Shown here piece after piece: positions 39,001 to 42,000 of a stretch of 64,000 nucleotides of DNA. Source of the DNA: Escherichia coli O157:H7 (GTDB lineage Bacteria; Pseudomonadota; Gammaproteobacteria; Enterobacterales; Enterobacteriaceae); the NCBI RefSeq assembly GCF_013167455.1, contig NZ_CP038328.1; one strand, given 5' to 3'. Position 1 is the stretch's first letter, and each line of letters begins with the position of its first letter. Made by a program: the position numbers.

Positions 39001-42000
39001 GGAGAATATCCCTGTGTTTGTTCAGTTCCCGTAGCGCAGCACAGACTCGCTCCCACTTCTGAACATTACTTTTCGCCCGGCGCAGCTCGCGGTTAGCCAC
39101 ATGCAGCGATGGTAGAATCAGGTCATCTGCTTTCGCTTCAGTGAACGATTGCTGCAACTTCACAATGTCCTCCACCGCTTCTGTTTTAATTTCTTCCTGT
39201 GCAGCCGTTTCCTGGACTGGTAACGCAACACCAGCTGGCTGAGGAAGGGCTTTACCCTCCGTTTCAGCTACGGATGCTGCTTTCGGCTCTGCCGGTAAAT
39301 CAACGCCCGGTATGCAGTAACGAAATTTACCATCCTGATTCACGCGAATCAGACACCCTTTGCTGATTGCCATTGCCAGCGATGAATTCGCCCGGCGGGA
39401 GGTAATTCCGAACATCAATGCCAGTTCATCCGCCGTTTGTGGGCCATGTTGTTCAATCGCCTCTGTCAGCATTTGCGCCGTCACTTTCGGTACCGGTGAC
39501 ACCGGTTCACTTTCACCAGCCTGAGTCAGCCACCATATCGCCCCCTTGTTATCCGCTTCTCCACGGCGTTTCAGTTTCCACAGTTCGTTGACAGCCTCTT
39601 CACGACTAATTCCAAGGCGAGCTGCCACCACATGTGAAGAGGCTCTTTTCAGTGCTTTCAGTGCGTCAGATACGGTTTCCATTAAAATTTCCTCCGACAA
39701 AATCGTTTCTCAGATTCAAACAAAACCAGCCGCCTTCCGGCGCTCGTATTCCTGTTTCAGTAATTCAATTGGCGTTGGCCCTTGCGGGCACTTCGGCGAT
39801 GCGAGTTGTCTCCGGATCGGGGGAATACTCATCCCGTTACCAACTTGCTTTGCCCATTTCGTCAGTTGCCGTTCTGCAAGTCGTTTTAACTCACCTTCCG
39901 TCATCTGCCGCTCAATCCCTCTGTCACGCATCTCGAGGCAAATGTGGTACAGCACCGGCTGTGGCCACGGGTATTTATCACTCCCGTCGTACCGCCAGGA
40001 TTCATTCCTCCAGCGACGGTACTCCTCCATCACGGCATCCACCGTCAGGCCAAATGGATTTGCCCCGCTCTCCGAAATCAACGCCACAAACTCAGCCAGG
40101 TCCGGAGGCCACGTTTCACCCGCCCGGCAGCGGTCCATGCACTGACGGCAGACCTGCCGGATTTGCTGTTCAGTCATCGCGCCAATCTGAGCAATCCAGA
40201 GCTTCGACGGCGCAGCCCCGTTCTTCTGGGTCCAGCGGTTCGAATACACCTCCCCCATAAGTTCCCACAGCTTCCAGGCCGTTTCCGTTGCTGATAAATC
40301 CGTTTTCACGTTCCCACTGTTCACGTGCTGCCCGAATTTCCTGAACTGCCCGTGATGCGGTGCCACCTGGTGCTGCATGGCTTACCCCCTTGCTGACTGG
40401 TTTTACCTGTGCCCTGACGTGCTGCACGTGACGGGCAAATTTCTGCTCCCACTGAACCTGCGTGAAAACCTTCCCCTCCGCCATCCAGTAATCCCGGAAT
40501 GCGGCAAGCTCAGCAGGTGTAAACTCAGGCTCAGGCAGAGCCATACCCCACAATGCAGCCCGCTGTCGAAAATCCAGCGACGGCCGCCAGACACCAGTCA
40601 TCGGAAATTTCCCGATCGGTTCGCTCAGGCCATCCGGGTATTCAGGTTCTGCTGTCTGCAACGGCGCGCCATTCGACTCACTGGCTGGAGCACTCTCGCG
40701 CATGCGCGCGTTATGTGTGGGGTTTAATTCTTTATCTGTATCTGTATCTGTCGTGACTTGTCGTGACATATGCGTGACGCGTCGTGACTCATCGTGACAA
40801 TCAGTGTTCTGCTCCCGCAGTCTTTCCCGCTCCCGCTGCGCTCTCTTGCGCTCTGCCGGGGATTTTGCGGTTTGCGAAACATTACCGTTATCCTCCTTCA
40901 TCACCTGGCGTTTTTCCCATCCGGAAATAAGATCGCCATCCAGAACTCGCCCCTGCATTGCATGCAAAATTGAATCAATCACGTCTTCCGTCACATCAAG
41001 CGCACTTGCTAAATCTTCCGTCGTGACATCAATGTGACCACGTAGTGACTCGCCGTGACATTTCGTGACATTTCGTGACGCACTCACCAGAAGGTGGATA
41101 TACACCGCCATCACTGTTGCGATTGGCTGTCCTGAGACCCTGGCAATGGTTCGCCATTTGGGATCATTTGGCATGTCATGCCACAATCTGAGCCAGGCAT
41201 TAGCCATACTCACCTCATCTGATACCGAACTTTACCCTCGAACATCCGGAAGAAATCCGGCATGAATATTGTTGGTCAATGCACGACAACAGCATTACCA
41301 GGCTGACCCCCACTGTTAGTCAGGGTGCCCCAGGCGATCGCCGCTGCGACAAAATCATCCACATCTTTCACCAGCCGATCCCTCCGTTCGACGATCTCAC
41401 GGTAATATTCAGAGCTGTGACTGCGCATACGGGCCACCAGCAGAGGCGGCATTGCCTTTTCGATCGCCGGTAACAGAGCCTGCATTTTTTCAACAGCATC
41501 AGGGGTGTCTTTATCCAGCCAACGGAAAATTTTCTGGGTATTACGAGCCAGGGCTTCCGGATGGCTGTCGTCGTACAGTTCCGGGAACGTCATCCCCAGT
41601 TCGAAATAAGTCCGGGCTATTTCAGCTGCAGGAACTTTCTCACCATCAGGATATGCCCAGGCATTCATCGCCATGCGGATGTGCTCATGTTTGATTTTCA
41701 TGAATCATTTGCCTCTTGATGCTTCGGGTATGATCGTTTTCGTCATTTGGTTGCTTCATCGACATATTCTGCGAATAACATGACGAGCGTCGTAAGTATG
41801 TCCAATCAACATCAGGACGAAGTTCTTCACACAGGACACCACCTTTTGTTGCTCGTTCAATCGCAGGACATCTCTCAGCAGGCAACTGACGTACACCTTT
41901 GATCCATTGATTTACGCTTGGAGGAGATACACCTAAAAGCCTAGCCATTGCTGATTGCCCACCGACAACAGCACAAGCTCGTTTGAATGAATAGTTATCT

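What the first reader, a model, noticed from the sequence alone, without database searches (positions are those of the whole stretch)
40170..40378. About 200-nt overlap between the O-like and P-like reading frames
The O-like ORF runs to 40170 while the P-like ORF can start as far up as 40378. Even the most downstream plausible P start (40204) still overlaps. Either the genes truly overlap, or one ORF end is an artefact of a frameshift.
Basis: seen in the sequence. Interest (0 to 1): 0.2.

Follow-up and report, generated by a model that had tools for sequence, protein, structure and literature searches.

The report
Real 209-base overlap of two replication genes
In this E. coli O157 prophage the gene for the replication initiator and the gene for the helicase loader share 209 bases read in two frames; the overlap is conserved in related phages, and the reference annotation hides it by starting the loader 67 codons too late.

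Summary
On the minus strand the initiator ('O-like', with a DnaT-like domain) ends at TGA 40172-40170. The lambda-P-like loader frame opens at ATG 40378, which has a Shine-Dalgarno sequence 5 nt upstream. The overlap is 40170-40378, with P in the +1 frame of O.

It is not a frameshift artefact. The DNA is 100% identical in every listed best hit among E. coli genomes. Both frames stay open in the same phase in 29 related loci (P identity 48-100%) and in two Vibrio phages.

Every locus has an SD+ATG 31-42 codons upstream of the conserved Met41. The RefSeq start (ATG 40177, 153 aa) is not conserved. O-synonymous sites are nearly frozen where they overlap P codons 34-67 (0.12 against 0.52), so the P frame is selected well upstream of 40177 and of Met41.

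The O frame is kept free of stops (20 of 23 lineages against 6.3 expected, P about 1e-9), although its tail residues show no constraint of their own. The predicted structures complement each other: where O is ordered P is disordered, and the reverse.

The same tail-plus-P unit follows initiators with at least four different Pfam matches. Lambda and phi80 overlap by only 4 nt. The finding is a modestly interesting, apparently undescribed variant of the lambdoid O-P module, plus an annotation correction.

The parts
40170..41213 (-). Initiator gene ('O-like'): a phage replisome organizer with a DnaT-like ssDNA-binding domain. It is 347 aa from GTG 41213; RefSeq starts it at ATG 41207 (345 aa). 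Stop is TGA 40172-40170.
   Evidence: ORF. Pfam DnaT domain PF17948 at residues 203-269, E=4.5e-17. phrog_1408 'replication initiation protein', E=8.7e-119. RefSeq CDS WP_001262323. Homologues of about 341-347 aa end at the same place.
39716..40378 (-). Helicase-loader gene ('P-like'), proposed full length of 220 aa from ATG 40378.
   Evidence: PF06992 Phage_lambda_P, E=1.6e-16. phrog_109 'P-like helicase loader', E=1.7e-63. Colinear with full-length lambda P: residue 85 aligns with lambda residue 94. Long forms of 220-223 aa occur in many species.
40170..40378 (-). The stretch read in both frames, 209 nt. It encodes O residues 279-347 plus the O stop, and P residues 1-69 with part of codon 70; P is in the +1 frame of O.
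   Evidence: The same phase and an overlap of 149-227 nt are found in 29 loci and in Vibrio phages.
40384..40391 (-). Shine-Dalgarno sequence for P (AAGGGGGT), 5 nt upstream of ATG 40378. It lies inside the disordered O linker (O residues 272-286, window 40356-40400).
   Evidence: Sequence. Homologues carry GGAGGT, AGGAGGT or GAGGTGA 4-7 nt before the aligned ATG. The O codon that supplies the AT of the ATG is always CAT or AAT, with 0 of 90 synonymous differences. The O linker has pLDDT below 50.
40298..40378 (-). P residues 1-27: a poorly conserved, predicted-disordered leader. It is read from the same DNA as the conserved O helix (O residues 287-303, window 40305-40355).
   Evidence: P amino-acid identity is 0.26, and P-synonymous differences fall to 0.315, which indicates O constraint. 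O-synonymous differences here are 0.499, which indicates no P constraint. AF2 gives P 1-27 low pLDDT with two stretches under 50 and an O helix at 287-303.
40173..40301 (-). O residues 305-347: a Gly-rich, acidic tail predicted to be disordered. It is read from the same DNA as the first conserved P helices (P 28-53 and 59-66).
   Evidence: O-synonymous differences are 0.121 for O 314-347 against 0.515 in the non-overlapping part. The P-coding phase pattern dominates. The O frame is kept open in 20 of 23 lineages against 6.3 expected. AF2 gives the O tail pLDDT of about 40 with no secondary structure and P helices at 28-53 and 59-66.
40256..40258 (-). ATG for P Met41. It is 93% conserved and is most likely an internal residue in the middle of a helix, not the start.
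   Evidence: for conservation. There is no conserved SD. The residue is Leu (CTG) in L024 and Leu in Vibrio phage D67. Trp35 and Trp38 upstream are conserved.
40175..40177 (-). ATG for P Met68, the RefSeq/PGAP start (153-aa product, 8-nt overlap ATGACTGA). It is judged to be a mis-called start.
   Evidence: RefSeq annotation. The residue is Leu, Phe or Cys in other loci. There is no SD. The most conserved part of P lies upstream of it.

Best explanation
The two replication genes of this Rac-like lambdoid prophage truly overlap by 209 nt. The initiator is translated through to TGA 40172-40170. The lambda-P-like helicase loader is translated from its own ribosome-binding site (AAGGGGGT, then 5 nt, then ATG 40378), which sits inside the initiator's disordered inter-domain linker. 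This gives a 220-aa P protein.

Within the overlap the two frames divide the constraint. In the first third (40305-40355) the DNA is shaped by a conserved O helix, and P reads it as a disordered leader that is free to vary. In the last two thirds (40173-40301) the DNA is shaped by the first conserved helices of P, and O reads it as a Gly-rich, acidic, disordered tail. That tail's residues are largely dictated by P, but its reading frame is still kept open by selection.

Inferred, not shown: the overlap keeps the initiator's C-terminal segment and the loader's N-terminal segment on the same DNA. In lambda these are the parts thought to dock O and P together (from memory, not checked here). The tail-plus-P cassette therefore moves as one unit between different initiator types. 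The overlap also makes P initiation depend on ribosome traffic through O, which could set the O:P ratio for a loader that is toxic in excess.
For: Shown by tool results:
(1) The ORFs, frames and start candidates are as described.
(2) The 1651-nt region is 100% identical in all 30 listed best E. coli hits, including EDL933. 275 records have a best match of at least 99% identity, and 659 records cover at least 80% of the query. A sequencing error is therefore excluded.
(3) In 29 loci from Escherichia, Citrobacter, Klebsiella, Pectobacterium, Serratia, Yersinia, Erwinia and others (P identity 48-100%), the upstream initiator ORF always ends inside the P ORF, always with P at +1.
(4) Every locus has an ATG 31-42 codons upstream of the Met41 equivalent. 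In 27 of 29 it has an SD-like match of at least 4 nt, often GGAGGT at 4-7 nt. The resulting overlaps are 149-227 nt.
(5) Met68, the RefSeq start, is replaced by Leu, Phe or Cys elsewhere. Met41 is Leu in L024 and in Vibrio phage D67.
(6) The O-synonymous difference fraction is 0.515 in O 198-270. It drops to 0.198 at the codons that carry the P ATG, returns to 0.499 in O 285-304, and falls to 0.121 in O 314-347. Trp38 of P is 100% conserved, while the O residues on the same bases are only 43-46% identical.
(7) By-phase diversity in P 34-67 has the same pattern as in non-overlapping P, with P3 > P1 > P2.
(8) The O frame is open across P codons 34-67 in 20 of 23 synonymously independent lineages against 6.3 expected, P=1.6e-9. 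Eleven control windows in non-overlapping P mostly match expectation, with one exception recorded under things noticed in passing.
(9) AF2 predicts P 1-27 as disordered and helices at 28-53, 59-66 and 70-85. For O it predicts a folded domain at 198-270, a disordered linker at 272-286, a helix at 287-303 and a disordered tail at 305-347.
(10) The shared C-terminal tail follows initiators with a DnaT domain, Phage_rep_O, DUF1376, HTH_36/DnaD_N, or no Pfam match.
(11) Similarity to Rac-SA53 and PPompW phages starts in the middle of O (about window 40749) and runs through P.
(12) Lambda and phi80 overlap by only 4 nt, and phi80 gene 14 resembles only P residues 92-220.
Against: There is no direct evidence of translation from ATG 40378: no ribosome profiling and no N-terminal peptide.

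The P leader (residues 2-33) shows no amino-acid constraint. Its frame would stay open by chance about 73% of the time given the O sequence, so the case for this start rests on the conserved SD+ATG and on the lack of any other conserved start upstream of Trp35/Trp38.

Met41 is 93% conserved, and many database entries start there (177-181 aa).

The O tail shows no reduction of P-synonymous variation (0.52 against 0.556). Its function, if it has one, rests on stop avoidance alone.

No RNA structure was found around the P SD that would point to a coupling mechanism (z=0.40).

The proposed functions of the overlap (co-inheritance of the interface, expression balance) are inference.
Confidence: 0.82

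Rival explanations
1. The RefSeq model is right. P starts at ATG 40177 (153 aa) and is coupled to O termination through ATGACTGA (8-nt overlap). The open P frame upstream is incidental.
For: PGAP annotates it this way in EDL933, and Rac-SA53 and pPE4 are annotated the same way. A start that overlaps the upstream stop is the classical lambda and phi80 arrangement.
Against: Met68 is only 59% conserved and is Leu, Phe or Cys in other loci. There is no SD. The most conserved part of P (EIYSNRWxxKNGxxPSxLWIAQIG) lies upstream of it. O-synonymous sites are frozen there, 0.121. The Pfam match starts at residue 55 of the long form. AF2 places helices 28-53 and 59-66 upstream. Lambda P aligns colinearly with the long form.
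Confidence: 0.03
2. P starts at the conserved Met41 (ATG 40258; 180 aa; 89-nt overlap). Alternatively, both Met1 and Met41 are used, giving long and short isoforms.
For: Met41 is 93% conserved. Many database entries are 177-181 aa. The 40 residues before it are poorly conserved, and residues 1-27 are predicted disordered.
Against: There is no conserved SD before it (for example CTATGGACAGTC in Klebsiella). The residue is Leu (CTG) in L024 and Leu in Vibrio phage D67. Ala34, Trp35, Leu37 and Trp38 upstream are conserved in the P frame, while the O residues on the same bases are not. The predicted helix runs from 28 to 53, straight through Met41. A strong SD+ATG is conserved 31-42 codons upstream.
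Confidence: 0.1
3. One ORF end is an artefact: a sequencing frameshift, or a decayed prophage gene in which O and P were once separate or fused.
For: Rare fused O-P ORFs exist (P0148, 496 aa; P0185, 481 aa), and one PHROG profile spans both proteins (phrog_15931). The prophage is one of many partly defective O157 prophages.
Against: The sequence is identical in all 30 listed best E. coli hits, and 275 records match at 99% or more. Both frames are intact in the same phase in 29 divergent loci and in Vibrio phages. The fused forms are singletons from read-assembly collections.
Confidence: 0.01
4. A programmed +1 ribosomal frameshift inside the overlap produces an O-P fusion protein in addition to the separate products.
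For: P is in the +1 frame of O over 69 codons, and the O frame is kept open beyond what its own residues seem to need. Fused ORFs turn up occasionally.
Against: No slippery or hungry-codon motif was looked for in a way that could establish one, and no RNA structure was found. P has its own conserved SD+ATG. Programmed +1 shifting is rare in bacteria (general knowledge).
Confidence: 0.02

Closest known systems
Phage lambda O-P and phi80 gene 15-gene 14 replication gene pairs
   Same: Same gene order, with an origin-binding initiator followed by a helicase loader. The loader belongs to the same Pfam family (PF06992); phi80 gene 14 is 47% identical over P residues 92-220. Iteron-like repeats lie inside the initiator gene, as ori does in lambda O.
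   Different: Lambda and phi80 overlap by 4 nt (ATGA); here the overlap is 209 nt. The initiator here has no Phage_rep_O match and instead carries a DnaT-like domain. The first 90 or so residues of P are a different sequence type from those of phi80 and lambda.
Rac-type prophage replication region (racR / ydaS / ydaT / ydaU / 'ydaV'), as in Escherichia phage Rac-SA53 and the PPompW prophages
   Same: The neighbouring genes are the same (RacR-like repressor, YdaS, YdaT, DUF1627). Identity is 86-88% from the middle of O through P. Both frames are open in the overlap.
   Different: Those records annotate P as 153 aa (8-nt overlap) or 140 aa (no overlap), so the long overlap is hidden. The N-terminal half of O, which carries the iterons, differs from this window.
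Long same-strand overlapping ('overprinted') genes of phages and viruses, such as lambda Rz/Rz1 or phiX174 A/B/K (from general knowledge, not tested here)
   Same: Two proteins are read from one stretch of DNA in different frames. Constraint is complementary, and one product is disordered where the other is ordered.
   Different: Here only the termini overlap, not an embedded gene. The two products are partners in one process, and the overlapped cassette is shared among initiators of different architecture.
Vibrio phage loaders next to lambda-O-like genes (VdhL-related; PMC11087808)
   Same: Vibrio phages D67 and D173 have a P-related protein whose N-terminus overlaps the tail of the upstream HTH_36/DnaD_N initiator by up to 212 nt and 200 nt respectively (the start is not resolved). 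The phase is the same +1, and the tail motif is similar (...QEERGGSFIDLDNGDW).
   Different: P identity is only about 36-43%, over residues 33-131 or 37-101. That these are VdhL family members is inferred from the paper's description, not tested. The paper does not use the word 'overlap'.

Membership tests
Pfam PF06992 Phage_lambda_P (lambda-P-type helicase loader) | Profile match above the curated gathering score | tested here: met
   60.9 bits against a cut-off of 26, E=1.6e-16; residues 55-187 match profile positions 28-161 of 162. phrog_109 'P-like helicase loader', E=1.7e-63.
Pfam PF06992 Phage_lambda_P (lambda-P-type helicase loader) | Pairwise similarity to lambda P itself, colinear over the protein | tested here: met
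   BLASTP gives 26% identity over 113 aa, E=6e-7. Residue 85 aligns with lambda P residue 94, so the 220-aa form matches the 233-aa lambda P in layout.
Pfam PF06992 Phage_lambda_P (lambda-P-type helicase loader) | Binds and loads host DnaB; docks to the initiator | not testable with these tools
   Biochemical property. Supported only by homology and gene position.
Lambda O family (Pfam PF04492 Phage_rep_O) | Profile match to the O N-terminal origin-binding domain | tested here: not met
   No PF04492 hit at E<=0.01; the only hit is the PF17948 DnaT domain. A related locus (L021) does carry PF04492 with the same tail, so the tail is not tied to one initiator family.
Lambda O family (Pfam PF04492 Phage_rep_O) | Works like O: an initiator gene just upstream of P, with origin iterons inside it | tested here: inconclusive
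   The position is met. Two clusters of 10-bp-spaced GTCACGA repeats lie at 40750-40799 and 41020-41080; 7 of the window's 15 copies are there. phrog_1408 'replication initiation protein', E=8.7e-119. Origin activity was not tested.
Primosomal protein DnaT (NCBIfam NF002770) | Whole-protein score above the equivalog cut-off | tested here: not met
   91.8 bits against a cut-off of 201; only residues 194-271 match. The protein shares a domain with DnaT but is not DnaT.
True same-strand overlapping (dual-coding) gene pair | Both frames open and in the same phase across divergent homologues | tested here: met
   29 of 29 loci plus 2 Vibrio phages, always with P at +1.
True same-strand overlapping (dual-coding) gene pair | Signature of selection on the second frame, seen as suppressed synonymous change in the first | tested here: met
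   O-synonymous differences are 0.121 in O 314-347 against 0.515 outside the overlap. P-synonymous differences are 0.315 in P 2-33 against 0.556 outside. The O frame avoids stops with P=1.6e-9, and controls are as expected.
True same-strand overlapping (dual-coding) gene pair | Direct evidence that both products are made from the overlap | not testable with these tools
   Needs ribosome profiling or proteomics.

The most novel reading that the evidence does not exclude
The overlap is an evolved device rather than mere compaction. Because the initiator's C-terminal helix and acidic tail share their DNA with the loader's leader and first helices, the two partners' docking ends are hard-wired together. 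The resulting 'tail + P' cassette cannot be split by recombination and can be placed behind any origin-binding domain: DnaT-type, lambda-O-type, DUF1376 and HTH_36/DnaD_N types are all seen. It would also tie loader initiation to ribosome traffic on the initiator mRNA. The arrangement would be ancient, shared by phages of Enterobacterales and Vibrionaceae.
Probability: 0.3. Interest if true: 0.55.

Novelty: new variant of a known kind. Interest (0 to 1): 0.35.

Why it matters
First, it corrects an annotation. The RefSeq 'replication protein P' of this prophage (WP_000139462, 153 aa) is seen on at least 1000 contigs. It most likely lacks its first 67 residues, including two predicted helices and the most conserved motif of the family. 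Gene callers penalise long overlaps, so the error spreads.

Second, long same-strand overlaps in bacterial and phage annotations are usually artefacts. This one passes conservation tests in both frames, so it is a clean natural example of dual coding with complementary order and disorder.

Third, it marks a recombination unit in mosaic lambdoid replication modules: the initiator tail plus the loader. That bears on how initiator-loader specificity is kept when modules are shuffled.

Fourth, it allows precise experiments, because single silent changes in one frame knock out the other product.

Tried and rejected
RNA structure around the P ribosome-binding site (40330-40450) folds no better than shuffled sequence (z=0.40), so a hairpin-opening coupling model has no support.

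The test 'P frame stays open given the O protein' turned out to be uninformative. It would stay open about 73% of the time by chance, so I did not use it as evidence.

My first version of the O-frame test measured openness up to each sequence's own stop. That conditions on the outcome. I replaced it with a fixed-target test on one representative per synonymously independent cluster, with control windows.

A fused O-P protein was considered because phrog_15931 spans both proteins. The fused ORFs are rare singletons in read-assembly data, so I rejected this as the normal state.

Three literature searches and a word search in two papers found no description of this overlap. The library is limited, so this is weak evidence of novelty.

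The statement that lambda P's N-terminal part docks O comes from memory of the older genetics. The eLife paper I opened only attributes unresolved density to the N-terminal domain.
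Full report
**What is in the sequence**

All genes of this region lie on the minus strand. 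The O-like ORF runs from GTG 41213 (RefSeq uses ATG 41207) to the stop TGA at 40172-40170. The P-like frame is closed by TAA at 40384-40382 and opens with ATG 40378. It then runs to 39716, giving 220 aa.

The shared stretch is 40170-40378, 209 nt. P is in the +1 frame of O, so O codon position 1 is P position 3 and the O wobble position is P position 2.

The in-frame start candidates for P are ATG 40378, GTG 40366, GTG 40324, GTG 40309, ATG 40258, GTG 40249, ATG 40177 and ATG 40138. ATG 40378 is preceded by AAGGGGGT with a 5-nt spacer. ATG 40258 and ATG 40177 have no comparable Shine-Dalgarno sequence.

**Where the window comes from and how it is annotated**

The 1651-nt region is 100% identical in all 30 listed best E. 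coli hits, including O157:H7 EDL933. 275 records have a best match of at least 99% identity, and 659 records cover at least 80% of the query. This excludes a sequencing error.

The neighbouring genes are those of a Rac-like lambdoid prophage: a RacR-type repressor, YdaS-like and YdaT-like proteins, the two replication genes, and a DUF1627 gene.

RefSeq annotates the initiator as a 'DnaT-like ssDNA-binding domain-containing protein' ending at 40170. It annotates 'replication protein P' as starting at ATG 40177 (153 aa), so the two overlap by only 8 nt, ATGACTGA. Related phage records use 153 aa or 140 aa. Other public entries for close relatives are 220-223 aa or 177-181 aa. The databases therefore disagree about the start.

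**What the two proteins are**

P matches Pfam Phage_lambda_P (60.9 bits, cut-off 26) and PHROG 109 'P-like helicase loader'. It aligns with lambda P colinearly: residue 85 pairs with lambda residue 94, so the 220-aa form has the layout of the 233-aa lambda protein.

The initiator has no match to the lambda O family. It has a DnaT-like domain at residues 203-269 and matches PHROG 'replication initiation protein' families. It also carries two clusters of 10-bp-spaced GTCACGA repeats. It is O-like in role and position, not in family.

**Homologues settle the termini**

A scan of one genome per species returned 28 loci. Four phage records were added, and six sequences were set aside: two short or cut loci, three whose P or initiator ORF came out truncated, and EDL933, which duplicates the window. 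Counting the window itself, this left 29 usable loci with P identity from 100% down to 48%. They include Citrobacter, Klebsiella, Pluralibacter, Pectobacterium, Serratia, Yersinia, Erwinia, Rouxiella and Limnobaculum.

- In every locus the upstream initiator ORF ends inside the P ORF, 53-113 nt past the equivalent of Met41 (mostly 89 or 92 nt), and P is always at +1.
- In every locus an ATG lies 31-42 codons upstream of the Met41 equivalent. In 27 of 29 it has an SD-like match of at least 4 nt, often GGAGGT, AGGAGGT or GAGGTGA at 4-7 nt. The overlaps are 149-227 nt.
- The O codon that supplies the A and T of that ATG is always CAT or AAT, never CAC or AAC (0 of 90 synonymous differences).
- Met68, the RefSeq start, is Leu, Phe or Cys in several loci.
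- Met41 is 93% conserved. However, it has no conserved SD, is Leu (CTG) in L024, and is Leu in Vibrio phage D67.
- In L022, L023, L024, L025 and L027 there is no other start codon between the SD-ATG and the conserved Trp35/Trp38.

**Selection in both frames**

Codon alignments give the fraction of synonymous differences among pairs that share an amino acid.

For O:

| O residues | Region | Synonymous difference fraction |
|---|---|---|
| 198-270 | no overlap | 0.515 |
| 279-284 | carries the P ATG | 0.198 |
| 285-304 | overlap, conserved O helix | 0.499 |
| 314-347 | overlap, O tail | 0.121 |

The O wobble positions are therefore nearly frozen exactly where they serve as second positions of P codons 34-67. 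Trp38 of P is invariant, while the O residues on the same bases are 43-46% identical. By-phase nucleotide diversity in P 34-67 has the same order (P3 > P1 > P2) as in the non-overlapping part of P. P is therefore under purifying selection at least seven codons upstream of Met41 and 34 codons upstream of the RefSeq start.

For P:

| P residues | Region | Synonymous difference fraction |
|---|---|---|
| 2-33 | overlap, O helix SRAVQ(E/Q)IRAAREQWER is conserved | 0.315 |
| 34-67 | overlap, O tail | 0.52 |
| 69-215 | no overlap | 0.556 (34-codon windows range 0.474-0.635) |

The residues of the O tail thus show no constraint of their own.

The O frame is nevertheless kept open. I resampled P's synonymous codons with the P amino acids held fixed. 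The O frame across P codons 34-67 then stays open in only 10-43% of trials per sequence. It is actually open in 20 of 23 synonymously independent lineages, against 6.3 expected (Poisson-binomial P=1.6e-9).

The same test on eleven windows in the non-overlapping part of P mostly gives observed counts close to expectation. The last window is an exception, at 13 of 22 against 7.8.

The reverse test, whether the P leader stays open given O, is uninformative: the chance value is about 0.73.

**Structure predictions**

For P, residues 1-27 have low confidence (two stretches below pLDDT 50) and little secondary structure. Helices follow at 28-53, 59-66, 70-85 and onward. Met41 sits in the middle of the first helix, and a start at Met68 would remove two helices.

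For the C-terminal 160 residues of O:

| O residues | Prediction | pLDDT |
|---|---|---|
| 198-270 | confident DnaT-like fold | 82-91 |
| 272-286 | disordered linker, carrying the P SD and ATG | below 50 |
| 287-303 | lone helix | about 55 |
| 305-347 | tail with no secondary structure | about 40 |

Where O is ordered, P is disordered, and the reverse. This is the pattern usually described for overlapping genes.

**The overlap as a module**

The C-terminal helix and tail are shared by initiators whose upstream parts differ:
- a DnaT domain (this window and 20 other loci);
- Phage_rep_O (L021);
- DUF1376 (L024);
- no Pfam match (several loci).

Vibrio phages D67 and D173 have HTH_36/DnaD_N initiators. 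They end in a similar tail that overlaps a P-related protein in the same +1 phase (up to 212 and 200 nt). Their start codon was not resolved. By their description these loaders resemble the VdhL group reported in PMC11087808, a paper that does not use the word 'overlap'.

Similarity of this window to Rac-SA53 and PPompW phages begins in the middle of O (about 40749), after the repeat clusters, and runs through P. By contrast, lambda and phi80 overlap by 4 nt, and phi80 gene 14 resembles only P residues 92-220. The unit that travels together is therefore the initiator tail plus P with its own N-terminal type.

**How it most likely works**

Shown: there are two frames and two conserved termini, P has its own conserved ribosome-binding site inside the O linker, and selection acts on both frames.

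Inferred:
- Ribosomes start P independently, 209 nt before O ends.
- The 27-residue P leader exists because the only place where O tolerates an SD+ATG is its flexible linker, which lies upstream of a constrained O helix.
- The overlap keeps the two partners' docking ends on one piece of DNA, and it may tie the amount of a potentially toxic loader to translation of the initiator.

I found no RNA structure that would support a specific coupling mechanism.

**Rivals**

- A start at 40177 is contradicted by conservation, structure and selection.
- A start at Met41, or dual starts, cannot be fully excluded without start-site data.
- A frameshift artefact is excluded.
- A programmed +1 shift that makes an O-P fusion is speculative. 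The only hints are rare fused ORFs in read-assembly data and a PHROG profile that spans both proteins.

**Novelty and verdict**

Both protein families and the gene order are known, and long overlaps as such are known in phages. What appears to be undescribed is that this clade of lambda-P-type loaders always overlaps its initiator by about 150-230 nt, with evidence of selection on both frames, across Enterobacterales and Vibrio phages. My three literature searches were limited.

I rate it a new variant of a known kind. It is of modest interest (0.35), with a practical consequence for annotation.

Noticed in passing
window 40750-40799 and 41020-41080 (minus strand, inside the O-like gene): Two clusters of 10-bp-spaced repeats with core GTCACGA, about 5 and 6 copies, lie 261 bp apart. 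Seven of the window's 15 exact copies are in this 330-bp stretch. They look like origin iterons inside the initiator gene, as in lambda. A (GATACA)3 run at about 40729-40751 adjoins the first cluster.
   Followed up: partly
window 40175-40177; RefSeq WP_000139462 (EDL933_RS33275): The RefSeq/PGAP start of 'replication protein P' (153 aa) appears to be 67 codons too far downstream. The same short model, or a 140-aa one, is used in Rac-SA53, pPE4 and the PPompW phage records, whereas other entries carry 220-223 aa.
   Followed up: yes
phrog_15931; proteins P0148 (496 aa) and P0185 (481 aa): A PHROG profile of 482 positions matches both O (positions 1-347) and P (positions 279-482). Rare fused O-P ORFs carrying both Pfam domains exist in read-assembly collections. 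They are probably indel errors or sporadic mutants, but they join the two frames within the overlap.
   Followed up: partly
L004 (Actinobacillus phage vB_Apl-pPE4, PP818812) and L018 (Vibrio sinaloensis 560-bp contig): A phage recorded as infecting Actinobacillus pleuropneumoniae is 88% identical in DNA to this E. coli prophage region. A 560-bp contig in a Vibrio genome encodes a P 77% identical to the E. coli one. The host assignment or the purity of these records looks doubtful.
   Followed up: no
P codons about 181-214 (window about 39737-39838): In the control for stop avoidance, the frame equivalent to O is open in 13 of 22 lineages against 7.8 expected near the 3' end of P. This is a mild excess that I did not explain.
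   Followed up: no
window 39682-39700 and 37775-38655: The DUF1627 gene has alternative starts: TTG 39700 in the mechanical ORF list, and a RefSeq start 18 nt downstream. Several downstream small genes overlap by tens of bases in the ORF list, for example 38046-38363 with 37775-38116. I did not examine these.
   Followed up: no
L035 (Vibrio phage D67) 1699-2361; L037 (Vibrio phage D173) 1675-2334: In these Vibrio phages the P-related ORF is annotated as a short 'hypothetical protein' (2035-2361 in D67). The open frame with homology extends at least 230 nt further upstream, into the 'replication initiation O-like' gene. This is the same kind of start mis-call as in E. coli.
   Followed up: partly
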